Below, one piece after another: positions 18,404-29,714 of a stretch of DNA of 32,000 bases (position 1 is its first letter; each line of letters begins with the position of its first letter). The notes below the pieces were generated by a model. That model saw only the letters and a program-made list of their open reading frames with translations, was not told the origin of the DNA and searched no databases. Source of the DNA: Celeribacter marinus (GTDB lineage: Bacteria; Pseudomonadota; Alphaproteobacteria; Rhodobacterales; Rhodobacteraceae); the NCBI RefSeq assembly GCF_001308265.1, contig NZ_CP012023.1, positions 602,932 to 634,931 of the forward strand, read 5' to 3'. The translations under genes were made by a program, and so were the position numbers.

Positions 18404-18423
18404 AAATGCTTCATGTAAATAAT
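18404..18423. repeat. Perfect 20-nt direct repeat aaatgcttcatgtaaataat (left copy)
   Basis: Identical to 29680-29699. It is followed by a second atgtaaat sub-repeat at 18424-18431. Confidence 0.85.
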
Positions 18424-18463
18424 ATGTAAATCATCCACCGCGCATGCTTTGAAAAGCTGTTAG

Positions 18464-18886
18464 CTAACTGGAACGTGCTTTCGTAACAAACGCAACAGCC
18501 TTGTCCAACTCGCCAGCTATCGCAGCCTGTTTAAAAGCGTCAAGCACGCCAGCAACATCGTCCAACTTGTCCACAAATACAGCGTTACTTTTGCCGTTAA
18601 TGTTCAAAACGCGACTGCCGTAACGGCACTGCACATAGTAACCCGCGTCTTGCTCAAAAAACCAAGCGCGTACCCGCTTTTCATGCTCAACGCGTACGCG
18701 CTCACCTGCGTCATTTGTCTGCCAGCGCTTCGATTTTACCGTATATTCGTCGCCAGCCAAAACAGCAGCAAGCACCCTGCCCTGTTCTTCAATCGCCGCA
18801 ACCAGCTTTTCACGTCGTGCAAGTACGGGGTCTTGTTTCACAGTACGTTGCACGGTCTTCAAGTTCAGTTTTGCAATATAGCTCAT
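18464..18886 (-). CDS. Island hypothetical protein (140 aa)
   Basis: Clean ATG-initiated ORF. I recall similar ~140-aa proteins in other integrative islands but cannot verify this. No motif recognised. Confidence 0.55.
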   Translation of the reverse strand: MSYIAKLNLKTVQRTVKQDPVLARREKLVAAIEEQGRVLAAVLAGDEYTVKSKRWQTNDAGERVRVEHEKRVRAWFFEQDAGYYVQCRYGSRVLNINGKSNAVFVDKLDDVAGVLDAFKQAAIAGELDKAVAFVTKARSS

Positions 18887-18954
18887 TTCAACAGCTCCTA
18901 ATATTGAATGCTGCCGCTACTATATTTTCAGACCAAAAGCATAACGACCTGAAA

Positions 18955-19734
18955 TCAGATGTATTTTTCTACCTTTGAAAAGTAGATTGTACGGGTCGGT
19001 ACAGAACCGAATTCTCTTTCATACCTGCCTACTCCCCCCATGTAGAGGCCATAGTGAAAAATATTCAAGTTCCTGTCAGTTCCGAACATTGTTTTTGTAT
19101 TTTCATCAAGCACTGTTTGGCCATTGAGCTTAGCTTTATAGAAGCCGTCGTTGGCCCAATGCACATCCAAATCGATAGTATTCCATCTGCCGAAAATATC
19201 ACTGCTTTTCGCAAGTTTGACCTTTTCCCTGCCAGTAGCAGTTGCAAACTCAGCGTAGAGCCAACTCACAGACTTCTGCCAACCCATCACGTTAACCATT
19301 AGCGGAACGTTAGGTGCACCTTTTTCAAAAAATTGAAAAATGTGGGTAAAGGGTCCTCCAATACGTTGATTGCTAGGTAGGAAGAAACTGATTGAGTATG
19401 AGGCGCGTTGATTCATTTCACCACCTAAGTCCATCCTCTCATACCGTTGCCGATCAGTTTGGCAGTCGACACCGCCACAATCTCCATGCCTCAATTCAAA
19501 ACGTTCAAGCTCGGAACTCGAAGCGGTTCCGGTAAAGTCCGGCACAACAGAATATGCATAATTAGCTGTAGAATTTCGTTCGTGCAGTGTCCAATTTCCA
19601 AATGCATTTTTGGGTGACCCGCGTGTGATCAGAGATCCATTTCCACCTACATTTTCAGAAACACATCCAGCTAGGCTGACGGTTGACGCCAACGCTCCGG
19701 TTACGAACCCACGCCTACCCAATAACATTGCCAT
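18955..19734 (-). CDS. Putative secreted lipoprotein, concanavalin-like / polysaccharide-lyase-like fold
   Basis: From Met28 of the track ORF the protein starts 'MAMLLGRRGFVTGALASTVSLAGC', which reads as a twin-arginine-like signal plus lipobox LAGC. 'FELRHGDCGG..CQTDRQRYE' resembles the N-terminal strand motif of the heparin-lyase-I-type polysaccharide lyase family (from memory). Confidence 0.45.
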   Translation of the reverse strand: MAMLLGRRGFVTGALASTVSLAGCVSENVGGNGSLITRGSPKNAFGNWTLHERNSTANYAYSVVPDFTGTASSSELERFELRHGDCGGVDCQTDRQRYERMDLGGEMNQRASYSISFFLPSNQRIGGPFTHIFQFFEKGAPNVPLMVNVMGWQKSVSWLYAEFATATGREKVKLAKSSDIFGRWNTIDLDVHWANDGFYKAKLNGQTVLDENTKTMFGTDRNLNIFHYGLYMGGVGRYEREFGSVPTRTIYFSKVEKYI

Positions 19735-19917
19735 ATACCCATCTAAATATTTGATCTTGTTTCCATAATGCACAACCCGCATTCGCAATGCAACGCGGGA
19801 ACCCGACGCACTCACAGCAGTGCAATGGAGCCGGAAATAGTCCTCCTAGTTCGCTATTTCAGAAACATCACCACCTTTGCTGACAAAGGATAAATACCTG
19901 CGAAAGGAACCGCAGTT

Positions 19918-20547
19918 ATGTTGCAAAGGAAAATCAATGCAGCTTGGGAGTACTGGCTAGAAAAGGACGATTGGAACGTTTTTGCGACGTTGAACTTTGG
20001 CCATCTGTCACTTTTGGAAGGCAATCGAAGCGACGCAGCTGGAAAACTTTGGCGCAGCTGCTTGTCTACAGTCGACCGCGCCGTTTACGGCCAAACAAGA
20101 AAGAACCAGCCTCGCTTTAATCGCGTCGCATTTAGACACAGTGGGGCAAACGGAACGAACCCGCATGTCCATATTCTACTAAGATCACCTATTCCAACGC
20201 ATGAATTCTGCGTGGCGCTTAACGCAATATGGGCGACGAAGTTTGCTCCCGCCGCAAATCCTGTAAGCAACTCCATCGCCCCAATTATCACTGTCAAAGG
20301 CGCAATAGGTTACGGACAACACGAAGAATTTAGGAACGACATTGGTGCTTTTGACGACAGGCTAAGTCACAGCACTTTGGGGCCAGCGCATCATGTTCGC
20401 GCTGATGCTCTGCAAAGGCTCCATGCTCAGGCATCTAAGGCAAATTTAGTTAAGGCACGATTGGCATTGCCCGATCATATTAAAACTACTCAGGCAAATT
20501 TTGATCGACGCGAACGTATGAGGGTTGCAGCACTGCTGTGCGTTTAG
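19918..20547 (+). CDS. HUH-motif Rep-like protein (putative rolling-circle replication initiator or relaxase-like nuclease)
   Basis: Motif-1-like 'VFATLNF', HUH motif 'NPHVHILL' and downstream Tyr candidates ('AIGYGQHEEF'). 209 aa. Confidence 0.45.
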   Translation: MLQRKINAAWEYWLEKDDWNVFATLNFGHLSLLEGNRSDAAGKLWRSCLSTVDRAVYGQTRKNQPRFNRVAFRHSGANGTNPHVHILLRSPIPTHEFCVALNAIWATKFAPAANPVSNSIAPIITVKGAIGYGQHEEFRNDIGAFDDRLSHSTLGPAHHVRADALQRLHAQASKANLVKARLALPDHIKTTQANFDRRERMRVAALLCV

Positions 20548-20683
20548 ACCTAGCATCTAGCACCACTAAGAATTTTTGCATGTGGCTTGGTTTTCCAAGT
20601 CACATCCTTGTTGTGCGTAAAACAATTAACACAAAACACATCAGTTCAAACCGACAACGGTAAATACACAGAGGCATTAGACG

Positions 20684-20971
20684 ATGACACTACTTGAAAC
20701 GACATACAGCCATTTGCGCAAAGCCGGACTTGTTAGCTGCGCGGAAGCGTTCAGCACCAGTTATTTGGGCAAGAACAAAAACTGGTACGCTTTCCAAACG
20801 CACAGCGAGCGCGATTTTAGCGTTGGCGCTGCTGTGCAGTGTTTGCGCTCAATACGCTCCAATAAAGCGCTTGCTGGCTTGGACACACAGCAAAGAGCGG
20901 CGCTGGATGGAGCTGAGCGTGATTTGCTGGCCCATTTGAACAAAATGTACTTGGTAGCAGACGTGATCTAA
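20684..20971 (+). CDS. Island hypothetical protein (95 aa)
   Basis: ATG-initiated ORF with the same orientation as its neighbours. No motif recognised. Confidence 0.45.
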   Translation: MTLLETTYSHLRKAGLVSCAEAFSTSYLGKNKNWYAFQTHSERDFSVGAAVQCLRSIRSNKALAGLDTQQRAALDGAERDLLAHLNKMYLVADVI

Positions 20972-21118
20972 AATGTTATAGAATTACTAATCCATAACAT
21001 TGTCACTCAATCTCAAGCAAAAACAGTGACTTGCTGAAATTTCAAAATCAGGTCGTTTTGCGAAATGTTATATATTACAATCACTTACAACAAAACCACA
21101 TGTTGTAGGGATAAGATA

Positions 21119-21697
21119 ATGAAACAAGCCAAGCTCCTATCAGATGCTGAACGCAAACGCCTTGCCGCAGTGATCGACAGCAAGCGCTACGCAACGCGCA
21201 ACCACACAGCCGTAGCGCTCAGCTTTTACGCGGGCCTACGTGCTTGCGAGATTGCTTGGCTGCGTATTGGTGATGTTTTCGAAGCTGGTAGCGCTGTGCG
21301 TGACACGATTTACCTGAGCGCAGCGCAAACGAAGGGCAGCTCGGGCAATACTGTATTGGTGAACAAAAAGCTGGCGACAGCGCTCAAGCGTTATGCTGCT
21401 GCTTACCCCAAACGCCTTCAGCAGCCAAATGTACCCGTCTTGTTCTCCGCAAAAGGATCGGGCTTTACAGCGCAGACGACTGTGAACCTGTTTCAAACGC
21501 TCTACAAAGCCGCAGCAATTGACGGTGCCAGCTCGCACAGCGGTCGGCGTCAATTTGTAACCGAGCTAGCTGACAAAGGGGTAAATGCCCGCGTTGTACA
21601 AGCACTAGCTCGGCACAAGCATTTGAACACGACCATGCGCTACATTGATTTAAACGAAAATAAGATGAGGGCGGCTGTTGAGCTGATCAACTACTGA
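21119..21697 (+). CDS. Small tyrosine recombinase (catalytic domain only, ~192 aa)
   Basis: The ATG at 21119 is preferred (MKQAKLLSDAERKRL...). Catalytic signature: 'GLRACEI' (Arg), 'SSHSGRRQF' (H-x-x-R) and 'ARHKHLNTTMRYID' (His...Tyr). No N-terminal core-binding domain is present. Confidence 0.8.
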   Translation: MKQAKLLSDAERKRLAAVIDSKRYATRNHTAVALSFYAGLRACEIAWLRIGDVFEAGSAVRDTIYLSAAQTKGSSGNTVLVNKKLATALKRYAAAYPKRLQQPNVPVLFSAKGSGFTAQTTVNLFQTLYKAAAIDGASSHSGRRQFVTELADKGVNARVVQALARHKHLNTTMRYIDLNENKMRAAVELINY

Positions 21698-22203
21698 AAC
21701 TTGTGCTGTTGTGCTAGAACGGCAAGCTCTTTGTTTAATTTGGGACTTGCCAAATGTTGACCCCATTTCCAAACGCAGTATTCAGACGTGCAATCAACAA
21801 TTCCCGCTTTCCTCAGTGCTTCAAAGTTTCCCTTACCTATTTTGCTTATGGGCTTTAACTGCTCGACCATAGCGCCCAAGTACCCGTGCTTTTCAATTAA
21901 TCGTTGCGATTTTTTGTCTATTTTTTCAACTGCTATCACAGCATGCCAAATCCGTTCTGCAACGCTATCCTCAACAAGTTGGTTGCCGCTCACTTGCGCT
22001 GGACTGCTGACTTGTGACTGAATAATTCGCACACCAGCATACCGCGCAACTTGACGCATTGCTTCACTGCCTTCTGGACCATGTGCTCTTGACCAAAAGC
22101 CCTCTAACGACTTCTGATCTGTAAGACTATCTAGCTCCGCAATTTCATCAGAGTATTTTTCGCGCAAATCGGACAATGCAGGGAGTGGATCTTTATATAT
22201 CAT
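21691..22203 (-). CDS. Island hypothetical protein (170 aa)
   Basis: ATG-initiated ORF. Its convergent end overlaps the recombinase gene by 7 nt. No motif recognised. Confidence 0.5.
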   Translation of the reverse strand: MIYKDPLPALSDLREKYSDEIAELDSLTDQKSLEGFWSRAHGPEGSEAMRQVARYAGVRIIQSQVSSPAQVSGNQLVEDSVAERIWHAVIAVEKIDKKSQRLIEKHGYLGAMVEQLKPISKIGKGNFEALRKAGIVDCTSEYCVWKWGQHLASPKLNKELAVLAQQHKFQ

Positions 22204-22644
22204 GGTGTGTAGCGCCTTATAACAACGACATTTTCACCAATCACGCTACGCAGAACGCTAGCTCCTTACAACAATTTTCACTATGCCTCTCAACCCCAAG
22301 CGCAACCTTCTCGTGCAGAACATAACGACCAGCATTTACCTGCGTTTTTGACCCAAAACCATGTGCTATCAAGTTAGGCGCACAGGCTTAACTGGCTTTT
22401 TGGCGTCGAGCTTACGTTCTTTACTTTTAAGCTTTCGTGCATTCTTCTCAAAGTCAGTCGTCTGTGCACGTTTGGCGCGTTTCGGCGTGCTTTTTAGTCC
22501 TGCGTTATAGTCCAATATCTCCCATATGTGCAAAATCACCACCTCAAATCTGTAAGTACTTCCCTACTTGAAACTGCGCTGTAAAACTTTTGTCAGCTAA
22601 CAACCCCTTCAAGCGTTAAATATTTATGCACGAAAAATTTACGC

Positions 22645-23274
22645 CTAAAATTCGTCGTCTTCCATCTGCTTTAGAAATTCCTCTAGCCGTGACTTCGCTT
22701 CGCTTGTGTTTTCCCTGTCTGTCCCAGCCGCTTCACGCTCCAAGCCGCGTATTGCCCACTCAACTACGTCAAGCTTTAAGTCTCGCTTCGAGCGTTTATT
22801 GCTCAGCAAACCGCCGCCATCGCTTTCCAGGCTCCTGCTTGTAATAACCATCGGTACTGTACCGGGAGTTAGCCCTAGTGTACTGCTGTCCGTGTCTCTA
22901 TCAAACCAAAGACGCAGCCCAGCATCTGCTGCGATGATCTCATCCAAGTAAACGTGCAGTCGTTCAAAAAGCGTGTCGGCCTGTGCAAAATGCTTTTGCG
23001 CCACCTTGCTCTTGCCGCGCGTACTAGCGCCCTCACCTTTGTTGTAGACAAACGTCGCTTTTCGCAATCGCGCTTCGTATTCCCGCACCTCATCCGGTTT
23101 ATCTTTTAACTCAGCACGCAGCTCTTTTTGATCAGACCAGGCTTGCACGTAACTGGCAAAATCCTCTTCAGTCAACCAAGCTCGCAACTGCCTGTTTTGG
23201 ACAATAGCCCCACCTGCTAGCTTGGCCGCTATCTTGCGCAGTTTCTTTAATCGAACTTCAGGTTTGTGTGCCAT
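22645..23274 (-). CDS. Island hypothetical protein (209 aa, charged and helical)
   Basis: ATG-initiated ORF with a basic N-terminus and an acidic C-terminus ('MEDDEF'). No motif recognised. Confidence 0.5.
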   Translation of the reverse strand: MAHKPEVRLKKLRKIAAKLAGGAIVQNRQLRAWLTEEDFASYVQAWSDQKELRAELKDKPDEVREYEARLRKATFVYNKGEGASTRGKSKVAQKHFAQADTLFERLHVYLDEIIAADAGLRLWFDRDTDSSTLGLTPGTVPMVITSRSLESDGGGLLSNKRSKRDLKLDVVEWAIRGLEREAAGTDRENTSEAKSRLEEFLKQMEDDEF

Positions 23275-23940
23275 AGCTCACCTTCAAACAGTTACTGAGG
23301 TCCATCACATTCGCACCCGCAAATAGAATTCAACCCTTCATAATCGGGTCAGAGCTCGATCCAAACTATCTGCCAGGGAGTAGTTAGCCAAACACAAAAG
23401 AGCACGGTTTTGTTACGCCTGACGCGCAGTACCTGGGTCACTACAACACATGAATCTAGCACCGCGCAATTCACAACCGGCACCTCCATTCACTTACGCA
23501 GCACGCCAACCCAAAACTGGCCGCACGACCTAATTGAAAGTCTAGGGCTGCATGTGCGACAGGAATGGCGCATCCGGCAAACCAGAGATGGCACACAAAG
23601 AAGGCATGATTGATTGAACGGCAGACTAGGCACCTAATGAACTGATGCGCATCATGTTTTACCTTGAATTGCTTCCACGGCTGGCTCATGCTTCAATGAA
23701 ATGACGAAGAAATTTTGATCAGTTTTGTCTTTTTTATAGTTTGGCACATATGAGGTTTTGCATCGAATGACGCGGGTATTTTCCCAAAAGGCGGGGCTTT
23801 GAATAACAATTTTGCCGCGGTATTTGTATATGCTCGAGAGGCAGCGATCCGTCTGGACTTAACCTGGAATCATAATTGGACGAGCTTTTTCCGCCGCACC
23901 CTCAGCATCACTGCGAGGAGAAAAAGCCATCGCACAGGCG

Positions 23941-23971
23941 TTGACAATCATCATACACGGCATCATATGAT
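23941..23971 (+). promoter_or_regulatory. Candidate sigma70-type promoter with overlapping 10-bp palindrome upstream of the three-gene operon
   Basis: TTGACA (23941-23946), a 19-nt spacer, then TATGAT (23966-23971). The perfect palindrome atcatatgat (23962-23971) overlaps the -10 element. The ATG at 24004 follows gaagggg (23991-23997). Confidence 0.3.
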
Positions 23972-24003
23972 ACCACGACAGCATCGTGCCGAAGGGGTGC
24001 GCG

Positions 24004-24360
24004 ATGTCAATTGACAGTGGATTACGCAAGGAGCTTGCAAAGTTTTGCAGTAGTAAGCGGACTTATCGAAGTGACTTTTCACCGACCATGCCAACTCACT
24101 GGTCGCCACAACACGTTAGACATCCCGATACAGGAGAAGCATTCACTGACCCGGGAGCTTGGCGTTTTGTAAAAGATTTGTTGGAAGCCGGGCATCCTGT
24201 TGAAGTAATCACACTCGATAAACCGCCTGGAAAGAAAGGTTACGTCCTAAAGTGCAAAGGCTACTCCTCGGAAATAATCTATATCAAGTTGCAGATTTTG
24301 TCCGGTTTTGTGATCGGCCGGAGTTTTCATGTGAGCGTAGTTAGAGAAAAACAACAATGA
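24004..24360 (+). CDS. Putative toxin, MqsR/RelE-fold-like (weak similarity)
   Basis: 118 aa from the ATG at 24004, which has a good SD. The C-terminal 'IIYIKLQILSGFVIGRSFHVS' resembles the terminal strands of MqsR ('VYLKITVIHDVLIVSFKEK'). The stop overlaps the next start (ATGA), in the toxin-first order of mqsRA. Confidence 0.45.
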   Translation: MSIDSGLRKELAKFCSSKRTYRSDFSPTMPTHWSPQHVRHPDTGEAFTDPGAWRFVKDLLEAGHPVEVITLDKPPGKKGYVLKCKGYSSEIIYIKLQILSGFVIGRSFHVSVVREKQQ

Positions 24361-24851
24361 CAAATAATGTAAATAAAGACACATGTATTGTATGCGGAGC
24401 GGCGGCTGTCGAAATCCAGACAATGACGCAGCAATTCGCTTACGCTGACAAGAACAGGGATGTTCTTTTGACGGCAGATGTACCTGTCGAGCACTGCCAT
24501 GAGTGTGGTGAAATACTGCTTGGAGTACAGGGTCAGATTGCACAGCATGAAGCGGTTTGTAGCTATCTTGGACGCTTGTCACCAGCCGAGATCAAGGAGA
24601 TCCGTACAGGAATGAAGCTCTCACAACTGGCTTTTGCAGAAAGAATAAATGCTGGTGTCGCTTCAGTTAAGCGCTGGGAAACTGGGATGGTAATCCAAAA
24701 CGCATCAATGGACCGTATCTTGCGTCAGGTAAACGACGAGGCCGACATTCCGATGCAAAGACGCGCACGAATTACGCCAGTCTTTAGAACTGAAATTAAG
24801 CCGCACATGCTAGCTGCGTCCAAGTTATTTCAGTTGCGCCCGAGCGGTTAA
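24357..24851 (+). CDS. MqsA/YgiT-family antitoxin (zinc ribbon + XRE-type HTH) with ~39-aa C-terminal extension
   Basis: CxxCG (C10,C13) ... CxxCGE (C47,C50), then 'LSPAEIKEIRTGMKLSQLAFAERINAGVASVKRWETG', which is the CxxCG_CxxCG_HTH architecture of MqsA. Residues 126-164 have no counterpart in the 131-aa E. coli MqsA. Confidence 0.8.
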   Translation: MTNNVNKDTCIVCGAAAVEIQTMTQQFAYADKNRDVLLTADVPVEHCHECGEILLGVQGQIAQHEAVCSYLGRLSPAEIKEIRTGMKLSQLAFAERINAGVASVKRWETGMVIQNASMDRILRQVNDEADIPMQRRARITPVFRTEIKPHMLAASKLFQLRPSG

Positions 24852-24857
24852 CGCAAC

Positions 24858-26705
24858 ATGTATACCATCACATTCTATTCGTACAAAGGCGGCGTCGGAC
24901 GCACCATGGCCTTGGCAAACGTTGCTACGCTCCTCGCTCAGAAAGGCAAGCGTGTCCTCCTTGTCGATTTTGATCTCGAAGCGCCTAGCTTGCCAAATTA
25001 TGGCGGACTTTCTGACCTAGTCATTAAACATGGACTTGTTGACTACATCTCGGCTTATCGAGAGACGGGCAAAGCGCCAGATGTGGCGGAGCACATCTAT
25101 AAATGCCACCAAGACGGCAATCCGATCTGGATAATGCCAGCAGGCGATACATCAACAAAAGACTATTCCAGAAAACTAGCCTCGATAGACTGGCAAACGC
25201 TTTATGACGATGAAAAAGGATATTTATTTTTCGAGGATCTGAAACAACAATGGCAAGTTTTCGAACAAGAGGGATTTGATTACGTCCTTATTGACAGTCG
25301 AACTGGACATACTGATGTTGGTGGTGTGTGCACACGTCACTTGCCGGATTTGGTAGTTGCTATGTATCTTCCGACGATGCAGAACATATCAGGGATGGCG
25401 CCTATCATTGGTGAAATCCGGAATGAAAAGTCCCGAGCTAGCAACCCAGTTGAACTGGTGTTTTGCGCGTCTAATGTGCCGGAACTTGACGATGAGCAGC
25501 AAATACTCAGTGATCTATTGAGGACAGCATCAGATCGGCTCGACTACGAGGCTAATGCACTGAATATTGTCCATCACTATGGCAGCTTACACGTGCTTTC
25601 ACATGCGATCTTCGTTCAAGATAGGCCGAACTCACGCCTTGCTAAGGAATATAATAGCCTCGCGCGCAGCGTCATATCTCACAACTTAGAAGACGCTGAC
25701 GGAGCAAAATTGGCTTTGCAGCGAATTATTCGGGAAGACATTCGCAGCCCTCAAACTAAATCAAAGAATACTCGGGATGAACTTGCGGCAAAGGTTGATC
25801 AAATCTTTTCGAGGCACAGGCATAACAGTGAGATATCAAACCTCGTTGCGCGAGTTCGTTCTGCAATTGGTGACTTCGAAGGTGAAATTTCAGCGTTGAC
25901 CAACGCAATCGAGTTGGGTGACGGAGGGGCCGGTCTGCGCTTTCGTCGAGCTCGTGCGTATCAGGCAATAAACATGACAGATAGGTCTGTCGAAGATCTT
26001 CGGCACATCCTCAAACATGAGAGGGTTACGGGCGCTGAATTGACAGCGGCATTGAGAATGTTGGAAAGGACCGACAAACAGTATGATGATGTATTAGATC
26101 AGCTTCTGGAGCGTAGCGATTTAGATCTTCCAATGTTAAATTCGATAGCGGAGGTTGCTCAACGAAACAGGCGACACCTTAGAAAGTTTGCGGACCATTT
26201 AACCCGCACTATAGCACGCAAAGAAGAATCGGAAAAAGAGAGAGCCTACGCCAACCATCACCTTGGACTTGCACTTATTGGCTGTAGTCGGTTTGATGAA
26301 GCTGATGCGAAGCTGGATTCAACTTCAGAAGCATCCAAGCTCGACCTGCCGAACAGGTTCAACCACTTCATCGCAATGTGGGGTGCGTCTGGGACGCCCG
26401 ATATAGGTATCGCGCATGAATTGCACGAAGTGATGTCTTTTAGAAAATCTCCAAGAGATGACGCTAACTTCCTGCAATGCCAAGCGGTCATTAACGCTGT
26501 TCTGGGTGACCACAAAGAGGCATTAGCAGCATTGGATCATGCTGATGAAGTTGCACAAAGTCTAGGAGGGCGGATATTTAGTTGCTCCTCCTACCTCTAC
26601 CTTGAAACTGAGGCATTTGTTCAGGAAAATGAGCAGCTTCGCAGTGCAATAAAAGAGAACGATCAGGTATCACTACGTATCTTCAATTCATCCAGTCAAA
26701 ACTAA
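24858..26705 (+). CDS. ParA/MinD-fold ATPase with variant Walker A (KGGVGRT) fused to a C-terminal TPR-like helical-repeat domain
   Basis: 'FYSYKGGVGRTMALANVA' is a deviant Walker A with Arg in the P-loop Lys position. 'VLLVDFDLEAP' is switch-like and 'DYVLIDSRTG' is Walker B. From about residue 330 there are TPR-like units ('RFRRARAYQAINMTDRSVEDLRHIL', 'ANHHLGLALIGCSRFDEADAKLD', 'FLQCQAVINAVLGDHKEALAALDHADEV'). The gene starts 6 nt after the antitoxin stop. Confidence 0.8.
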   Translation: MYTITFYSYKGGVGRTMALANVATLLAQKGKRVLLVDFDLEAPSLPNYGGLSDLVIKHGLVDYISAYRETGKAPDVAEHIYKCHQDGNPIWIMPAGDTSTKDYSRKLASIDWQTLYDDEKGYLFFEDLKQQWQVFEQEGFDYVLIDSRTGHTDVGGVCTRHLPDLVVAMYLPTMQNISGMAPIIGEIRNEKSRASNPVELVFCASNVPELDDEQQILSDLLRTASDRLDYEANALNIVHHYGSLHVLSHAIFVQDRPNSRLAKEYNSLARSVISHNLEDADGAKLALQRIIREDIRSPQTKSKNTRDELAAKVDQIFSRHRHNSEISNLVARVRSAIGDFEGEISALTNAIELGDGGAGLRFRRARAYQAINMTDRSVEDLRHILKHERVTGAELTAALRMLERTDKQYDDVLDQLLERSDLDLPMLNSIAEVAQRNRRHLRKFADHLTRTIARKEESEKERAYANHHLGLALIGCSRFDEADAKLDSTSEASKLDLPNRFNHFIAMWGASGTPDIGIAHELHEVMSFRKSPRDDANFLQCQAVINAVLGDHKEALAALDHADEVAQSLGGRIFSCSSYLYLETEAFVQENEQLRSAIKENDQVSLRIFNSSSQN

Positions 26706-27065
26706 ATTTTGGAAATTGAAGCCGTCTCATAGAAGTTCAGCAACTTGATGAACGCTATAATCTATCTGCAGTCTGGTGCTACCAACGACCGCCCTCTCTG
26801 GGAGCACCAAGGCATCCGATCGCCTAAACAACGACTGCCTGACGTCGGTGCTTAGCTTTGAGTTTGGCTGACAGATTGCAGTTATAAAAGCGAAAAAGTG
26901 CACGGTTTCTTTACGCTTATAATAGATAGATGAGCAGCTTTCGCATGCTTAAACTAGGGTCGCTAAGCCCCCAACCTGCGCCTTCATACGCCAGCATAGC
27001 TGACCGCACCTAAGACGCGCTGTACGCAGCAATTTGACGCCTGTGTGTTACTTCAAAGTTTGAAG

Positions 27066-27116
27066 TTAGCGCATGCGTTTTGCAGCCAGCTCCATCGCTT
27101 CAAGCTTTTTGCGTGC
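27066..27116 (-). pseudogene. Remnant of the 3' end of a second, related integrase gene
   Basis: The minus-strand reading gives ARKKLEAMELAAKRMR*, compared with the intact integrase C-terminus ARRKLDAMQSAAKRRR*. The DNA includes an identical 14-mer tgcgttttgcagcc and roughly 80% identity over ~50 nt against 28220-28270. Nothing upstream is homologous. Confidence 0.5.
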
Positions 27117-27163
27117 CCTGTTGACTACAATCAATCTGGTTAAAGCACAGAAGATCTTTTTGG

Positions 27164-27928
27164 CTAGACTGGCTCAACATGACAATTAGTGAGCTGTCCA
27201 CCACCAAAACCGAACCAAGCCCAATTACCAGTAACGAGATAAACGTCATCCGGTTCTGCATCTATAAGAATATCGACCACGTAACCGCCTTTTAGCAAGA
27301 TACATTCAAACCTGTGGAAGCGAGATTCGAACCGAGCATAGGGGTCAAGTATGCCATTGTGAAGCGAAACGAATTCTAAACGATCCATAAAAACCCCATA
27401 ACGATAATCGCGGTTAAAACGTGGTTTGTTCTGATCGAATACATCCCGCAATTCTCTGTAATCATCAGCTGTATACTTAACTGCTGCATCAAGAGTATCT
27501 CCATGCTCTCGAAATAAACTATATTGTCTCAAGTCACTAAAACCGGTTGACTGAAAGTCAACAAGACTTTCAAATCCAAAACGCCCATAACGCTCAAGTT
27601 CATCTAGAGAACTAAAGCCTGTTTTCTGAAAATCGGCCAACGTTTCGATTCCCTTACTGCTGTAAAGTTCGTACTCTGCAAGGGTTGAAAAGCCAGTCGC
27701 CTCAAATTCAGCCAATGTCTCGAGCCCTGACACCCGATAACGGTCATACTCTTCGAGCGTTGAAAAGCCAGTCGCCTCAAATTCCGCCATAGTTCCAATC
27801 CCATAGTTCTGGTATCGGTTCCACTCAATGATCGATGAAAAGCCACCTTCGGTTCTTACCTTTTCAAAGTAGAAAAACACAGTAGCCGACAGAGCTGCAA
27901 TGGCAGCAAAAGCAAATACCTTCTTCAT
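27164..27928 (-). CDS. Secreted or membrane-anchored tandem-repeat protein (254 aa)
   Basis: The N-terminal hydrophobic 'MKKVFAFAAIAALSATVFFYF' is followed by four 25-aa repeats (G[IL]xT[LM]AEFEATGFSTLxEYxxY...). The 75-bp DNA period is shown by an identical 26-mer at 27684-27709 and 27759-27784. Confidence 0.65.
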   Translation of the reverse strand: MKKVFAFAAIAALSATVFFYFEKVRTEGGFSSIIEWNRYQNYGIGTMAEFEATGFSTLEEYDRYRVSGLETLAEFEATGFSTLAEYELYSSKGIETLADFQKTGFSSLDELERYGRFGFESLVDFQSTGFSDLRQYSLFREHGDTLDAAVKYTADDYRELRDVFDQNKPRFNRDYRYGVFMDRLEFVSLHNGILDPYARFESRFHRFECILLKGGYVVDILIDAEPDDVYLVTGNWAWFGFGGGQLTNCHVEPV

Positions 27929-28219
27929 TTTAGTCCTTTTGGAAAATTTATAGCATCGATACCGACAAGAAACGCTACACTACTGTACAAGGCCGGTAAA
28001 AATTCACCCATCACCGACGATGGGAACCAAGTTTATATAATCGTCACGCTTTTGTTTAAAACTCATTGTCCTAGTCGACCTTGTCAACACCGTATGCAAC
28101 TCAAATCACAAAATAAACGCAGATTTGCACTCCTGCTTTTTGGGGCTTGGCCTTATTAGTCCGTCGCACTTCGAAAACCGCCATCCTATTTTTAACAATG
28201 TCTTGACCTACTCATCTAG

Positions 28220-29614
28220 TCAGCGCCTGCGTTTTGCAGCCGACTGCATCGCATCAAGCTTCCTTCGCGCCCGTTCCGCTTCCGTTGCGCCAGTCGCCGC
28301 CACGCCGCGCTGCACAGCCCTGCCCTCCGTACTCAGCAATACGTCCACGTCCATCAGCATGCCTTTGCGCACGTAATGATCATCAATTTGCTTTCGGCTC
28401 GTACCCATATTTTCAGCCAGCATGTCGTACGTTGCTAAATTGTAGCCCATGTCCCTAAAGCGTTCTTCCGCATAGTAATGCCTCAAGCTGTAAGCCGTGC
28501 GTCGATCACCATTTTCGTCATACAGCAAGCCAGCTTCTTCAAGCATTTTGGGCAAAGTTTTATAAAATCCGTTGTTCTGCTTGCCGCTTGCATCACAAAA
28601 CACCCAATCGTTTGCATCAGTATGCCCCGTAAGCTTGCAAAGCTGTTGATAATGAACGTTCAAAAAGTAATGTGATCGTACAATCCGCGTGCCCGTTTTA
28701 GTGTTTTTGGGCACAATTATCTCCAAGTACTGCTGGCCCTTATCACTTGTTTTAACTGAAATATCTTTGTGCTTAAGCTGCAAAACTTCGCCTGTGCGCA
28801 TGCCTGTTTCAGCAAGCCATGTAAGATAAAATTTGAGCAGCTGACGGTTATATTTGTGCGCCGAGTTAACCCGCTCGTCGCTTACGCCTCTGCCATCAAC
28901 CCATCGCTGCATGTAATCCTGCAACTCCATGTATTCAGCATGTGAAAACGAAGGACGCCTTTTTGCTGCAATGCCCTGCCGTACAAAAGTGTTTTCAATA
29001 ATCGGCATGTGCAAAATAAGCTTCATGCTGTTCGCCCAGCCAAATATTTCACGCAAAGCGCTCTGCTCCATGTCCATGCTTTTTTTAGCTGGTTGCAGCG
29101 CATGATTGGCGTGTCGTTTGCGCTCAGCTTCGTCCGCCCTCGCCCAATACGTCATGCGCCAGTTCCAATAACCCTGCACAAATGCATGTGTCATCTCGTC
29201 CAGCTTCATAGTGCCAAAATATGGTAGCCAGTAACGCTGTGCGTGTTTCTCGTACCACGTAACGCGTTGCGAAATTCCATTTCTGCCTTTTGCATGTTGC
29301 AATGCTTCAAGCCGTTGCCGCTTATCAGCCCACCAAATCACGTATAAATCTTCAAACGTCAGCTGTTTGACTGGCTCTTTTTTCTTAGCACGCAAGCGCA
29401 AGTCGTCGTATTTGTCCAAAGCGTACCGTCTCGCTTCTTCTAAATCGGTTTCGCCCGTACTTTCCTGTACATAGGTGACCTTGTTTCCATAAACGTCCTG
29501 CATGCCCCGTACGTGTATGCGCATGTGATAAATGGGCCGTTTTGCATGCTGACGATGAAAAAGAATGATTTGGCCGTCTTTAAGCTCGACTTTGTTCAAG
29601 TAACTTTTGCTCAT
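28220..29614 (-). CDS. int: Tyrosine-type site-specific integrase
   Basis: 464 aa. Catalytic signature: 'ETGMRTGEV' (Arg), 'AYSLRHYYA' (R-H box) and 'MGTSRKQIDDHYVR' (Tyr). It is adjacent to the island border repeats. Confidence 0.92.
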   Translation of the reverse strand: MSKSYLNKVELKDGQIILFHRQHAKRPIYHMRIHVRGMQDVYGNKVTYVQESTGETDLEEARRYALDKYDDLRLRAKKKEPVKQLTFEDLYVIWWADKRQRLEALQHAKGRNGISQRVTWYEKHAQRYWLPYFGTMKLDEMTHAFVQGYWNWRMTYWARADEAERKRHANHALQPAKKSMDMEQSALREIFGWANSMKLILHMPIIENTFVRQGIAAKRRPSFSHAEYMELQDYMQRWVDGRGVSDERVNSAHKYNRQLLKFYLTWLAETGMRTGEVLQLKHKDISVKTSDKGQQYLEIIVPKNTKTGTRIVRSHYFLNVHYQQLCKLTGHTDANDWVFCDASGKQNNGFYKTLPKMLEEAGLLYDENGDRRTAYSLRHYYAEERFRDMGYNLATYDMLAENMGTSRKQIDDHYVRKGMLMDVDVLLSTEGRAVQRGVAATGATEAERARRKLDAMQSAAKRRR

Positions 29615-29679
29615 AGCAGTGCCGCCAGTATCATTTCCTTGTAAAACTACTGTAAAAGCAGCAGCATTATCTGTCTATC

Positions 29680-29699
29680 AAATGCTTCATGTAAATAAT
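29680..29699. repeat. Perfect 20-nt direct repeat aaatgcttcatgtaaataat (right copy)
   Basis: Identical to 18404-18423. It lies 65 nt beyond the integrase start codon. Confidence 0.85.
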
Positions 29700-29714
29700 C
29701 TGTCAAACCCATAA

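What the first reader, a model, noticed from the sequence alone, without database searches (positions are those of the whole stretch)
24858..26705. ParA/MinD-type ATPase with Lys-to-Arg Walker A variant (KGGVGRT) and TPR fusion, not a canonical partition ATPase
The codons aaa ggc ggc gtc gga cgc acc (24885-24905) encode KGGVGRT. The signature lysine of deviant Walker A ATPases (KGG) is kept, but the P-loop Lys of the canonical KGGxGK[ST] is Arg.

The protein is two to three times longer than partition ParA proteins. No parB-like gene or centromere repeats follow it. Its C-terminal half consists of TPR-like helical pairs.

I recall that protein-family annotation includes a 'KGGVGR-motif variant AAA ATPase' class, often fused to repeat or signalling domains. 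Its biology is, to my knowledge, largely uncharacterised. Arg in the P-loop may change nucleotide hydrolysis kinetics, giving a switch-like rather than a motor-like protein.
Basis: partly seen in the sequence, partly recalled or inferred. Interest (0 to 1): 0.65.

Follow-up and report, generated by a model that had tools for sequence, protein, structure and literature searches.

The report
Variant ATPase in three-gene antitoxin operon
The gene is real and encodes a MinD/ParA-like ATPase whose catalytic lysine is always arginine, fused to a TPR-like helical domain; across many bacterial phyla it is the third gene of a fixed, mobile three-gene operon with an MqsA-type antitoxin/repressor and a small protein of unknown fold, which points to an undescribed toxin-antitoxin-like, possibly anti-phage, system.

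Summary
ORF 24858-26705 (+) encodes 615 aa with KGGVGRT at residues 10-16. It matches NCBIfam NF047398 'KGGVGR-motif variant AAA ATPase' (170.6 bits, cutoff 90). The AlphaFold model (pLDDT 89) has a MinD/Soj-like domain (aa 1-275) followed by a helical-hairpin, TPR-like solenoid. No ParB gene or centromere-like repeats are nearby.

The gene is the last of a tight operon: a 118-aa protein with no family or fold match (24004-24360), an MqsA-family zinc-finger/HTH protein (24357-24851), then the ATPase.
- Starting from the ATPase, 79 of 80 genomes from more than 10 phyla have the MqsA-like gene directly upstream, and 76 of 80 also have the small gene.
- Starting from the small protein, 41 of 42 metagenome loci with enough DNA have the ATPase.
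- A perfect palindrome, ATCATATGAT, precedes the operon in 108 of 124 loci (one mismatch allowed).
- The gene-2 proteins end in a conserved peptide (F-R...F-x-L-R).
- Arg replaces the P-loop Lys in 86 of 86 orthologues.
- The ATPase core is strongly conserved, while the TPR part is hypervariable.

In this window the cassette sits on an 11.3-kb low-GC integrative island.

Best reading (inferred, confidence about 0.5): a tripartite toxin-antitoxin-like module. Toxicity, ATP use and protein contacts are untested.

The parts
23962..23971 (.). Perfect 10-nt palindrome ATCATATGAT, inside the longer imperfect palindrome 23959-23974. It is the candidate operator of the operon and lies 33 nt upstream of the ATG of gene 1. 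A TTGACA hexamer lies at 23941-23946.
   Evidence: locate it in the window. Within 150 nt upstream of gene 1, the same core is exact in 74 of 124 distinct related loci and present with at most 1 mismatch in 108 of 124. The remaining 1.24 Mb of those loci hold 0 exact and 24 one-mismatch matches. The orthologous locus L001 carries the same core. Binding by the MqsA-like protein is inferred, not shown.
24004..24360 (+). Gene 1: a small conserved protein of 118 aa (ATG at 24004; the mechanical ORF starts at GTG 23986). It occupies the toxin position of an mqsR-mqsA-type operon. It has no family or fold match.
   Evidence: There is no Pfam, NCBIfam, PADLOC, PHROG or PDB sequence hit. The AlphaFold2 model has pLDDT 92 and is alpha-alpha-beta4. 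Foldseek finds nothing at E<1e-3 in PDB or BFVD. The family has 488 clusters at 50% identity. Invariant residues are Y93, K95, R106, S107, F108, H109 and S111. Its stop overlaps the gene 2 start by 4 nt.
24357..24851 (+). Gene 2: an MqsA-family CxxC...CxxC zinc-finger plus HTH protein of 164 aa, a putative antitoxin and autorepressor.
   Evidence: TIGR03830 scores 68.1 bits (cutoff 61.8) and Pfam MqsA_antitoxin scores 39 bits (cutoff 30) over residues 10-129. It lies directly upstream of the ATPase in 79 of 80 genome loci.
24783..24839 (+). C-terminal tail peptide of gene 2, FRTEIKPHMLAASKLFQLR (residues 143-161), beyond the MqsA-homologous region. It is the candidate docking peptide for the ATPase/TPR protein.
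   Evidence: The motif F[RKQ]-x(8-20)-[FYW]-x-L-[RH] occurs in the last 40 aa of 54 of 85 gene-2 proteins, against 0.14 expected from shuffles. A relaxed form occurs in 69 of 85, against 2.0 expected. The unrelated 235-aa gene-2 proteins of L016 and L088 carry the same kind of tail. L143, which has lost the ATPase, has a truncated tail. The docking role is inferred.
24858..26705 (+). Gene 3, the finding itself: a KGGVGR-variant MinD/ParA-like ATPase fused to a TPR-like solenoid, 615 aa.
   Evidence: (more than 120 full-length homologues of 596-637 aa at 38-100% identity).
24885..24905 (+). Deviant Walker A motif KGGVGRT. The signature Lys10 is kept and Arg15 replaces the canonical P-loop Lys.
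   Evidence: Arg is present in 86 of 86 orthologues. All solved relatives carry Lys here, for example Aquifex MinD KGGVGKT aligned. Table 1 of PMC9178275 lists the canonical motifs.
24858..25682 (+). ATPase domain (residues 1-275) with a MinD/Soj fold. Switch I (VDFDLEAP) and Walker B/switch II (DYVLIDSRTGHTD) are invariant.
   Evidence: Foldseek top hits are Soj 2bek/1wcv, MinD 1hyq/1ion/3q9l, FlhG, FleN and NifH, with target TM 0.6-0.79. Across phyla, 92 of 275 columns are at least 90% conserved.
25758..26567 (+). TPR-like helical-hairpin solenoid (residues 301-570). Its N-terminal part (301-495) is hypervariable.
   Evidence: The AlphaFold2 helices are at high confidence. Pfam TPR hits appear in orthologues. 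Only 2 of 195 columns are at least 90% conserved, and median identity to the window protein is 20%, against 48% for the ATPase domain.
26571..26606 (+). Beta-hairpin (residues 572-583) carrying the conserved F-S-C-[WS]-x-Y-L motif. Together with F501, N502, W508, N537, Q540 and C541 it forms the conserved part of the C-terminal region.
   Evidence: 12 of 105 columns at least 90% conserved in residues 496-600.
18404..29706 (.). Context: an 11.3-kb low-GC integrative island that carries the cassette. It is bounded by 27-nt direct repeats (18404-18430 and 29680-29706) and has a tyrosine integrase at 28220-29614 (-), next to rpsI/rplM.
   Evidence: GC is 0.44-0.49 inside against 0.53-0.60 outside. 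The direct repeat is D3, 93% identical.

Best explanation
The ATPase is the third component of a conserved, horizontally mobile three-gene module that resembles a tripartite toxin-antitoxin system.

Proposed roles:
- Gene 1 (118 aa) is the putative toxin or effector.
- Gene 2 is an MqsA-family zinc-finger/HTH protein. It is proposed to neutralise gene 1 and to repress the operon at the conserved ATCATATGAT palindrome.
- Gene 3 is the KGGVGR ATPase-TPR protein. It is proposed to be a nucleotide-dependent dimerisation switch that controls the antitoxin by holding its conserved C-terminal peptide (F-R...F-x-L-R).

The conserved C-terminal patch of the solenoid would dock that peptide. The hypervariable TPR part would sense a variable trigger, such as a phage protein. 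The Arg-for-Lys P-loop would favour a long-lived ATP-bound state over fast turnover. In the toxin-antitoxin-chaperone (TAC) systems, a SecB-like chaperone bound to the antitoxin tail plays the equivalent part.

Shown: gene identities, operon conservation in both directions, the palindrome, the tail motif, the invariant Arg, the fold, the conservation gradient, and the mobile context.

Inferred: toxicity of gene 1, neutralisation and repression by gene 2, the tail-TPR contact, ATP binding and slow hydrolysis, and a role in defence.
For: Operon structure:
- Gene 1 and gene 2 overlap by 4 nt, and gene 2 and gene 3 are 6 nt apart.
- Gene 2 passes the curated MqsA thresholds.
- The order, small gene first and then the MqsA-like gene, is the toxin-then-antitoxin order listed for MqsR (Table 1 of PMC11980606).

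Co-occurrence:
- From the ATPase, 79 of 80 genomes from more than 10 phyla have the MqsA-like gene directly upstream, and 76 of 80 also have gene 1.
- From gene 1, MqsA-like follows wherever the contig continues past gene 1 (55 of 56 loci), and the ATPase follows in 41 of 42 loci with enough DNA.

Modularity typical of toxin-antitoxin systems:
- Planctomycete loci have a different 115-120-aa gene 1.
- L016 and L088 have a different gene 1 plus gene 2 pair that keeps the same kind of C-terminal tail.
- The tail motif is enriched far above shuffled controls.
- L143 lacks the ATPase and has a truncated tail.

Cis element: ATCATATGAT is present with at most 1 mismatch upstream of 108 of 124 operons, and is almost absent elsewhere in the same loci.

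ATPase:
- Arg is invariant and the signature Lys is kept in 84 of 86 orthologues.
- Switch I and Walker B are invariant.
- 92 of 275 ATPase columns are at least 90% conserved, against 2 of 195 in the TPR part.
- The fold is MinD/Soj-like.

Context: integrative island here. Elsewhere the neighbours include integrases, transposases, Eco57I-type restriction-modification genes, an nSTAND NTPase and a HEPN protein. Four IMG/VR viral contigs carry the whole cassette. PADLOC candidate PDC-M28B matches at E=4.5e-29.

Precedents:
- TAC systems include MqsRA pairs, and HigBAC is triggered when a phage protein disrupts the antitoxin-chaperone contact (PMC11980606; PMC5105189).
- BcsQ (RGGVGTT) shows that a MinD-like protein can naturally lack the catalytic Lys (PMC9178275 Table 1).
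Against: - No experiment or prediction here shows that gene 1 is toxic.
- Gene 1 has no detectable relative among known toxins. The Pfam, NCBIfam and PDB profile searches were empty. Foldseek gave no hit at E<1e-3, and neither MqsR nor any RelE-type structure appeared among the listed hits. hhalign against an MqsR profile gave a probability of only 2.6% over 15 columns.
- No protein-protein contact was modelled. The tail-TPR docking is an inference from co-occurrence.
- Nucleotide binding is inferred from motif conservation. Kaur et al. predicted that MinD/ParA-like domains in other conflict systems are inactive (PMC7159879).
- The only defence-database hit is to an unvalidated candidate system, and its partner protein (PDC-M28A) was not found here.
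- Several loci sit among ordinary housekeeping genes.
Confidence: 0.5

Rival explanations
1. Non-toxic regulatory switch. The MqsA-like protein is simply a transcription factor acting at ATCATATGAT. The MinD-like ATPase is its nucleotide-dependent partner or anti-activator, as FleN is for FleQ or as type Ia ParA acts as a co-repressor. The small protein is a co-factor. The trio would regulate functions of the mobile element or the host rather than kill the cell.
For: - The palindrome and the HTH are both conserved.
- MinD/ParA-family ATPases that act on transcription factors exist, for example the FleN-FleQ structures among the fold hits.
- Gene 1 has no similarity to any toxin.
- Some loci lie among housekeeping genes.
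Against: - The cassette moves as a self-contained three-gene unit between unrelated contexts, with no conserved fourth gene that could be its target.
- The palindrome is confined to the operon's own upstream region, which points to autoregulation only.
- Swapping of gene 1, the MqsA scaffold, and the toxin-first gene order with overlapping genes are hallmarks of toxin-antitoxin systems.
Confidence: 0.2
2. The ATPase-TPR protein is itself the effector. When released or activated it interferes with MinD/ParA-dependent processes such as division-site placement or nucleoid organisation. Kaur et al. classed MinD/ParA-like domains in vWA-MoxR conflict systems as cell-division-related effector domains. 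On this reading, genes 1 and 2 are its regulators.
For: - PMC7159879 lists MinD/ParA-like domains as effector domains of conflict systems.
- The ATPase core is extremely conserved and has the MinD/Soj fold.
Against: - The variable part is the TPR, which is a sensor-like pattern, while the effector-like small gene is the one that gets swapped.
- No MinD-like membrane-targeting helix can follow the ATPase domain, because the solenoid does.
- MqsA-family proteins are known as antitoxins of small toxins encoded just upstream of them.
Confidence: 0.15
3. Partition or positioning system. The ATPase would be a ParA-type motor, the MqsA-like protein its DNA-binding adaptor, and the palindrome its centromere. 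The system would stabilise the excised island.
For: The ATPase has a ParA/MinD fold with a deviant Walker A motif. An upstream DNA-binding protein and a conserved palindrome are both present.
Against: - The ATPase scores far below the ParA and MinD family cutoffs.
- The catalytic Lys is replaced, although ATP turnover is essential for partition (PMC9178275).
- There are no repeat arrays.
- The window has a single 10-nt site.
- The cassette lies in chromosomes in many unrelated contexts, often with no other mobile-element genes.
- A conserved third small gene and a TPR fusion are not features of Par systems.
Confidence: 0.03

Closest known systems
Toxin-antitoxin-chaperone (TAC) systems: HigBA-SecB-like, MqsRA-SecB-like (MqsRAC), HicAB-SecB-like
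   Same: Both are three-gene operons made of a toxin-antitoxin pair plus a third protein. In both, the antitoxin carries a C-terminal extension beyond its normal fold. The same third gene is combined with different toxin-antitoxin pairs. MqsA-type antitoxins occur in both (here).
   Different: The third protein here is a 615-aa MinD/ParA-like P-loop protein with a TPR-like solenoid, not a roughly 150-aa SecB-like chaperone. Gene 1 is not a recognisable MqsR, HigB or HicA toxin. Any dependence of the antitoxin on gene 3 is untested.
MqsR-MqsA type II toxin-antitoxin system (E. coli ygiUT; PDB 3HI2)
   Same: Gene 2 passes the MqsA family thresholds, with its zinc finger and HTH. The small gene comes first and overlaps gene 2. 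A palindromic site lies upstream of the operon.
   Different: Gene 1 is not an MqsR family member: no PF15723 hit, hhalign probability 2.6%, and no Foldseek match. Gene 2 has an extra tail of about 35 aa. The palindrome is ATCATATGAT. A third gene is obligatory.
MinD / Soj-ParA / FlhG / FleN deviant-Walker-A ATPases
   Same: They share the fold (target TM up to 0.79), the signature Lys, a MinD-like switch I (DFD) and a Walker B (DS..G).
   Different: The P-loop Lys is invariantly Arg. There is no MinE, ParB or centromere partner. There is no membrane-targeting helix. A 340-aa C-terminal solenoid is added. Scores are far below the family cutoffs.
BcsQ (cellulose secretion; Walker A RGGVGTT)
   Same: BcsQ is a MinD-like protein that naturally lacks the canonical catalytic Lys (PMC9178275 Table 1). 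It is also a fold hit, 6yay/6yb5.
   Different: BcsQ also lacks the signature Lys, has Thr rather than Arg at the Lys position, has a different partner (BcsR) and a different cellular role, and has no TPR.
KGGVGR-motif variant AAA ATPase domain (NCBIfam NF047398), PADLOC candidate PDC-M28B, and the 'inactive MinD/ParA-like' domains of vWA-MoxR conflict systems (Kaur et al. 2020)
   Same: It is the same variant ATPase domain: 170.6 bits to NF047398 and E=4.5e-29 to PDC-M28B. It is likewise linked to conflict or defence contexts.
   Different: Those entries name a domain that occurs in several architectures. The fixed 615-aa architecture and its operon with an MqsA-like protein and the small protein were not found in any text searched. 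The PDC-M28A partner is absent here.
STAND/Avs-type sensors (NTPase plus TPR sensor)
   Same: Both have the logic of a conserved NTPase engine fused to a rapidly diverging TPR-like array.
   Different: The NTPase is from a different class (SIMIBI MinD-like, not STAND). No effector domain is fused. The output would act through a separate toxin-antitoxin pair.

Membership tests
KGGVGR-motif variant AAA ATPase (NCBIfam NF047398) | Domain HMM score at or above the curated cutoff | tested here: met
   170.6 bits against a cutoff of 90, residues 2-187 matching model positions 3-189 of 190.
KGGVGR-motif variant AAA ATPase (NCBIfam NF047398) | Walker A reads KGGVGR[ST]: signature Lys kept, P-loop Lys replaced by Arg | tested here: met
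   KGGVGRT at residues 10-16. Arg is present in 86 of 86 orthologues.
ParA/Soj partition ATPases and MinD | Deviant Walker A KGGxGK[ST] with the catalytic Lys | tested here: not met
   Arg15 replaces the Lys. Canonical motifs are listed in Table 1 of PMC9178275.
ParA/Soj partition ATPases and MinD | Family HMM at or above the curated cutoff | tested here: not met
   MinD TIGR01968 scores 35.5 against 212.9. ParA_partition NF041546 scores 29.6 against 180. RepA TIGR03453 scores 22.6 against 348.
ParA/Soj partition ATPases and MinD | SIMIBI MinD/Soj three-dimensional fold | tested here: met
   Foldseek against Soj, MinD, FlhG and FleN gives probability 1.00 and target TM 0.69-0.79 over about 280 columns.
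ParA/Soj partition ATPases and MinD | Cognate partner (ParB, MinE or MinC) and a centromere repeat array nearby | tested here: not met
   No such family was found among the neighbouring ORFs scanned. No tandem repeats occur in 23000-28300.
TPR repeat proteins | Pfam TPR model at or above the gathering score | tested here: inconclusive
   The window protein is below threshold (TPR_8 17 bits against 25.7; TPR_2 13.5 against 27). Orthologues pass at the aligned positions: P0016 TPR_19 30 against 25, and P0081 TPR_2 31.3 against 27.
TPR repeat proteins | Solenoid of antiparallel helix pairs | tested here: met
   The AlphaFold2 model shows about 16 helices between residues 280 and 570, with block pLDDT mostly 80-95.
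MqsR-MqsA type II toxin-antitoxin system | Antitoxin of the MqsA family (zinc finger plus HTH) | tested here: met
   TIGR03830 scores 68.1 against 61.8. PF15731 scores 39 against 30.
MqsR-MqsA type II toxin-antitoxin system | Toxin of the MqsR family (PF15723, BECR fold) encoded upstream | tested here: not met
   No PF15723 hit in 24 family members at E<=1. hhalign against the MqsR profile gave probability 2.6%. Foldseek found no RelE or MqsR hit. Only a motif-level resemblance exists, Y-[IL]-K-L...S-F-[KH].
MqsR-MqsA type II toxin-antitoxin system | Toxicity of gene 1 and its neutralisation by gene 2 | not testable with these tools
   This needs expression experiments.
Toxin-antitoxin-chaperone (TAC) systems | Three-gene operon in which the antitoxin carries a C-terminal extension | tested here: met
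   The operon is shown. The tail of about 35 aa lies beyond the MqsA model and carries a conserved motif.
Toxin-antitoxin-chaperone (TAC) systems | Third gene encodes a SecB-like chaperone | tested here: not met
   The third gene is a MinD-like ATPase fused to a TPR-like domain. The PADLOC library returned no hit for genes 1 or 2 apart from a marginal RmrA match (E=0.0092) for gene 2.
PADLOC candidate system PDC-M28 | Both components, M28A and M28B, present | tested here: not met
   M28B matches the ATPase domain at E=4.5e-29. None of the 8 neighbouring proteins scanned matches M28A.
BY-kinases (bacterial tyrosine autokinases) | Family HMM at or above the cutoff | tested here: not met
   TIGR03018 scores 25.7 against 230.65. 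TIGR01007 scores 18.4 against 108. Wzc scores 14.5 against 1068. The 'tyrosine-protein kinase family' names on some homologues are automatic.

The most novel reading that the evidence does not exclude
A previously undescribed class of tripartite toxin-antitoxin or abortive-infection system. A MinD-like ATP-dependent dimerisation switch, with its P-loop Lys fixed as Arg, takes the place of the SecB chaperone of TAC systems. It carries a hypervariable TPR sensor and docks on a conserved C-terminal peptide of the antitoxin. The toxin is a small protein with a fold not represented among solved structures. The whole unit is autoregulated at a palindrome, ATCATATGAT, that is conserved across phyla.
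Probability: 0.3. Interest if true: 0.8.

Novelty: new variant of a known kind. Interest (0 to 1): 0.62.

Why it matters
The KGGVGR-variant ATPase domain is annotated in thousands of genomes, yet no function is known for it. This work gives one large subfamily a concrete and testable context. That context is a self-contained three-gene cassette with a defined operator, a defined candidate docking peptide, an invariant active-site substitution, and a hypervariable sensor-like domain.

If the toxin-antitoxin reading holds, three things follow:
- Third-component control of toxin-antitoxin systems, so far known for SecB-like chaperones, would extend to a nucleotide switch of the MinD/ParA class.
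- A new toxin fold would be added.
- There would be a natural experiment on what a Lys-to-Arg P-loop does in a deviant-Walker-A ATPase.

The cassette is small (about 2.8 kb) and occurs in cultured Alphaproteobacteria such as Ruegeria, Marimonas, Martelella, Mesorhizobium and Bradyrhizobium. The experiments are therefore straightforward.

Tried and rejected
- MqsR homology of gene 1. I noticed that Y-I-K-L...R-S-F-H resembles MqsR Y81-L-K...S-F-K96 and tested it. A PDB profile search at E<=10 returned 0 hits. A Pfam scan of 24 members found no toxin family. hhalign against the E. coli MqsR sequence gave 0.5%, and against a 24-sequence MqsR profile 2.6%. Foldseek against PDB and BFVD found nothing at E<1e-3, only weak NTF2-like noise with TM 0.2-0.36. 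Homology is therefore not shown. I keep it only as a motif-level lead.
- HicA/HicB identity of the alternative partner pair in L016 and L088. This was my guess from reading the sequences. Pfam and NCBIfam gave no support, so I dropped it.
- Known defence systems. PADLOC hit only the unvalidated candidate PDC-M28B, without its partner. PHROGs gave only a generic 'ParA-like' hit.
- Literature. Searches for 'KGGVGR', 'PDC-M28', MqsA with ParA and tripartite, ParA-like ATPase with antitoxin and TPR, and MqsA with ATPase and three-gene found no description of this operon. DefensePredictor and the HicA-context preprint do not mention it.
- Partition system. Rejected: no ParB, no repeats, and below-cutoff scores.
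- A sigma-70 promoter upstream. The consensus scan reported none upstream of gene 1. TTGACA at 23941-23946 and TATGAT at 23966-23971 are 19 nt apart, so I make no promoter claim.
- Fe-S cluster ligation by the invariant Cys158, Cys541 and Cys576, by analogy with NifH. I considered this but could not test it without model coordinates, and I make no claim.
- A structural search for the TPR part alone was not possible, because the ATPase domain dominates the whole-model hits.


Full report
**1. The observation**

The ORF at 24858-26705 (+) is open and encodes 615 aa. Codons 24885-24905 read K-G-G-V-G-R-T, residues 10-16.

- Residues 2-187 score 170.6 bits against NCBIfam NF047398, 'KGGVGR-motif variant AAA ATPase', whose cutoff is 90. 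The MinD, ParA, RepA, Mrp, ArsA, NifH and BY-kinase models match only the first 40-100 residues, far below their cutoffs. Pfam gives weak AAA_31, CbiA and VirC1 hits.
- The closest solved sequences are MinD proteins. Aquifex MinD aligns KGGVGKT against KGGVGRT.
- Table 1 of a ParA review lists KGGxGK[ST] for SopA, Soj, MinD, FleN, PpfA, FlhG, MipZ and ParI. The listed exceptions are McdA (SGGQGKT) and BcsQ (RGGVGTT) (PMC9178275).

**2. The protein**

A search of about 5.8 billion proteins returned more than 5000 hits. The best 120 are, with one truncated exception (P0017, 524 aa), 596-637 aa long and align end to end at 38-100% identity, so the two-domain architecture is a conserved family.

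An AlphaFold2 model built on 39 homologues is confident, with pLDDT 89 and pTM 0.79.
- Residues 1-275 form a MinD/Soj-type alpha/beta domain. Foldseek top hits are Soj, MinD, FlhG, FleN, BcsQ and NifH, with target TM 0.6-0.79.
- Residues 280-570 are a run of helical hairpins.
- A beta-hairpin at 572-583 carries an invariant F-S-C motif.
- A long helix follows at 584-601.

Pfam TPR models are sub-threshold in this protein but pass in orthologues at the aligned positions. 'TPR-like solenoid' is therefore a fair description.

In 86 orthologues taken from genomes of many phyla:
- The motif is KGG[VTA]GR[TS] in 84, and Arg is present in all 86.
- Switch I (DFDLEAP) and Walker B/switch II (DYVLIDSRTGHTD) are invariant.
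- In the ATPase domain, 92 of 275 columns are at least 90% conserved.
- In residues 301-495, only 2 of 195 columns are. Median identity to the window protein is 20% there, against 48% for the ATPase domain.
- In residues 496-600, 12 of 105 columns are conserved.

A decayed pseudo-enzyme would not keep this active-site conservation. I infer that nucleotide binding and dimerisation are retained, with Arg as a fixed functional specialisation.

**3.

Two ORFs sit directly upstream on the same strand.
- ORF 24357-24851 is 164 aa. It passes the curated thresholds for the MqsA antitoxin family (TIGR03830 68.1 against 61.8; PF15731 39 against 30). It ends 6 nt before the ATPase start.
- ORF 24004-24360 is 118 aa. 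Its stop overlaps the MqsA-like start by 4 nt. It has no hit in Pfam, NCBIfam, PADLOC, PHROGs or PDB sequences.

The same trio appeared in the first homologous contigs I opened: Pikeienuella at 67% identity, Ruegeria at 38% and Parvibaculum at 42%. Each lay in a different neighbourhood.

I then scanned one genome per species (GTDB). The best 80 loci come from Alpha- and Gammaproteobacteria, Acidobacteriota, Planctomycetota, Spirochaetia, Latescibacterota, Myxococcota, Binatia, Gemmatimonadota, Bacteroidota, Omnitrophota and others. HMMs that I built from four examples gave these counts:
- The MqsA-like ORF is immediately upstream of the ATPase in 79 of 80 loci.
- The small protein is upstream of that in 76 of 80.

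I also ran the test in the other direction, on 56 metagenome loci found with the small protein alone:
- The MqsA-like gene follows wherever the contig continues past the small gene (55 of 56 loci; L106 ends there).
- The ATPase follows in 41 of the 42 loci with enough DNA.

The small-protein family has 488 clusters at 50% identity. All of the 150 best-scoring representatives listed are stand-alone proteins of 76-173 aa. The association is therefore close to obligate in both directions.

**4. Two further conserved elements**

*A palindrome.*
- ATCATATGAT lies at 23962-23971, 33 nt upstream of the gene-1 ATG.
- On its own it is not significant in the window.
- Within 150 nt upstream of gene 1, it is exact in 74 of 124 distinct loci and present with at most 1 mismatch in 108 of 124. 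The other 1.24 Mb of the same loci hold 0 exact and 24 one-mismatch matches.
- Many loci have two copies.
- I take this as the operator of the MqsA-like HTH protein. That is an inference.

*A C-terminal peptide.*
- The MqsA-like proteins extend about 35 aa beyond the MqsA model.
- They end in a conserved peptide, here FRTEIKPHMLAASKLFQLR.
- The motif F[RKQ]-x(8-20)-[FYW]-x-L-[RH] occurs in the last 40 residues of 54 of 85 proteins, against 0.14 expected from shuffling. It usually ends 3 residues from the C-terminus.

**5. The exceptions are informative**

- In planctomycete loci (L046, L064, L066), gene 1 is replaced by an unrelated 115-120-aa protein, while gene 2 stays MqsA-like.
- In L016 and L088, both genes are replaced by a different pair, of 96-152 aa and 235 aa. 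The 235-aa protein still ends in ...FRTEV...EFLRP or ...FRET...FVLRP.
- In L143 the ATPase is absent, the tail is truncated, and nadB follows.
- L047 has genes 1 and 2 in one ORF.

Three features stand out: the first gene is swapped, the tail is retained whenever the ATPase is present, and the cassette is self-contained. This is the behaviour of modular toxin-antitoxin systems with an accessory third component.

**6. Genomic setting**

- In the window, the cassette lies on an 11.3-kb island with GC 0.44-0.49, against 0.53-0.60 in the flanks.
- The island is bounded by 27-nt direct repeats at 18404-18430 and 29680-29706.
- It carries a tyrosine integrase at 28220-29614, next to rpsI/rplM.
- Elsewhere the neighbours include integrases, a Mob relaxase, transposases, an Eco57I-type restriction-modification enzyme with HNH and HATPase genes, a type IIG enzyme, an nSTAND NTPase and a HEPN protein. 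Some loci have only housekeeping neighbours.
- Four of six IMG/VR hits carry the whole cassette.
- PADLOC matches the ATPase domain to the unvalidated candidate PDC-M28B (E=4.5e-29), but no partner was found.

**7. What gene 1 is**

- The AlphaFold2 model is confident, with pLDDT 92. Its topology is helix 5-15, a long loop, helix 49-61, then four antiparallel strands.
- Its invariant residues lie on the last two strands (Y93, K95, R106, S107, F108, H109, S111). They resemble the Y81-x-K...S-F-K96 region of MqsR.
- That resemblance failed every test I could run. The PDB profile search found nothing. hhalign probability was 0.5% against the MqsR sequence and 2.6% against an MqsR profile. Foldseek found nothing at E<1e-3 in PDB or BFVD.
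- I therefore call it a putative toxin by position only, with a fold that has no significant solved relative.

**8. Mechanism**

Shown:
- a fixed operon, with a conserved operator and a conserved antitoxin tail;
- a conserved nucleotide-site architecture with an invariant Arg;
- a hypervariable TPR part and a conserved C-terminal patch;
- mobility between unrelated genomic contexts.

Inferred: the MqsA-like protein neutralises gene 1 and represses the operon. The ATPase-TPR protein binds the tail through its conserved C-terminal patch. It acts as a nucleotide-dependent switch that either stabilises the antitoxin or releases it when the variable TPR surface meets a trigger.

The nearest paradigm is the TAC systems. 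There, a SecB-like chaperone binds the antitoxin's C-terminal extension. These systems include MqsRA pairs, and HigBAC is fired by a phage tail protein that breaks the antitoxin-chaperone contact (PMC5105189; PMC11980606).

In this superfamily, replacing the Walker A Lys is associated with loss of ATPase activity: P1 ParA K122Q is listed as ATPase-defective, and F SopA K120Q is cited as showing that ParB-stimulated ATP hydrolysis is needed (PMC9178275). BcsQ shows that a natural Lys-less MinD-like protein exists. A long-lived ATP-bound dimer is therefore plausible, but this needs measuring. Kaur et al. instead predicted that MinD/ParA-like domains in other conflict systems are inactive (PMC7159879).

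I put about 0.95 on 'third gene of a conserved tripartite module'. I put about 0.5 on the toxin-antitoxin-like reading with the ATPase as controller of the antitoxin. The tail-docking and sensor detail is less likely than that.

**9. Rivals**

- A non-toxic regulatory switch, similar to FleN-FleQ: 0.2.
- The ATPase itself as the effector against division or the nucleoid: 0.15.
- A partition system: 0.03. It is disfavoured by the below-cutoff scores, the lost catalytic Lys, the absence of repeats and of ParB, and the chromosomal contexts.

**10. Novelty and verdict**

The domain family is already named in NCBIfam, so the protein alone is a member of a known but uncharacterised class. Seven full-text searches and the papers I opened did not describe its fixed operon, operator or tail motif (papers opened). 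The library does not hold most subscription journals, so a description may exist elsewhere.

I rate it a new variant of a known kind: a tripartite toxin-antitoxin-like system with a different third component. Interest is 0.62.

Noticed in passing
window 24858-24905, and database proteins P0001, P0003, P0007, P0018, P0055: The public gene call for this very protein (P0001, 599 aa), and for several orthologues of 596-600 aa, is shorter than the ORF and aligns over only 97% of the query; the one short call that was aligned (P0018) starts at the internal Met17. Such a start removes the KGGVGRT P-loop and leaves the product with no Pfam domain. Conservation of MY..TFYSYKGGVGRT in 86 orthologues supports the ATG at 24858.
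   Followed up: partly
window 18404-18430 and 29680-29706: 27-nt direct repeats, 93% identical and 11,276 nt apart, exactly bracket the low-GC region. They are probably attL and attR of an integrative island inserted beside rpsI/rplM. No tRNA gene was found in the window.
   Followed up: partly
window 27064-27118 and 28218-28272: A 55-nt direct repeat, 82% identical. The second copy covers the 3' end of the integrase gene. The first copy may be a remnant of an earlier integrase or insertion.
   Followed up: no
window 19918-20547 (+): A 209-aa ORF with no family hit that contains NPHVHILL, an H-hydrophobic-H motif like those of HUH rolling-circle Rep proteins or relaxases. It may be the island's replication or transfer protein.
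   Followed up: no
window 27164-27928 (-): A 254-aa ORF with a hydrophobic N-terminus and four to five tandem repeats of about 25 aa (ATGFSTL.EY..Y). At the DNA level these appear as a 75-nt repeat at 27663-27812. No family hit.
   Followed up: no
window 21065-21697 (+): A short (210 aa) tyrosine recombinase that consists of the catalytic domain only (Phage_integrase, 74.7 bits). It lies inside the island, in addition to the 464-aa integrase at the island's end.
   Followed up: no
L016 4869-6001, L088 9037-10010: Orthologous ATPases preceded by a different, unannotated gene pair (96-152 aa plus 235 aa). The larger protein carries the same kind of C-terminal FR[TE]...F.LRP tail as the MqsA-like proteins.
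   Followed up: partly
L046 5051-5398, L066 443-805, L064: Planctomycete versions of the cassette replace the small first gene with an unrelated 115-120-aa protein that ends ...IY[IL]ETVLD...TVV... In L046 the cassette directly follows a 1530-aa type IIG restriction-modification enzyme gene.
   Followed up: partly
L047 5106-5924; L143 3932-4716: In L047 the small protein and the MqsA-like protein lie in one ORF, either a fusion or a frameshift. In L143 the pair has no ATPase, the tail is truncated, and nadB follows. L143 looks like a decayed cassette.
   Followed up: no
L149 7959-11279: A viral contig (IMG/VR) encodes a roughly 1100-aa protein whose N-terminus matches the KGGVGR ATPase domain, with no MqsA-like gene or small gene upstream. 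This is a different architecture of the same variant domain.
   Followed up: no
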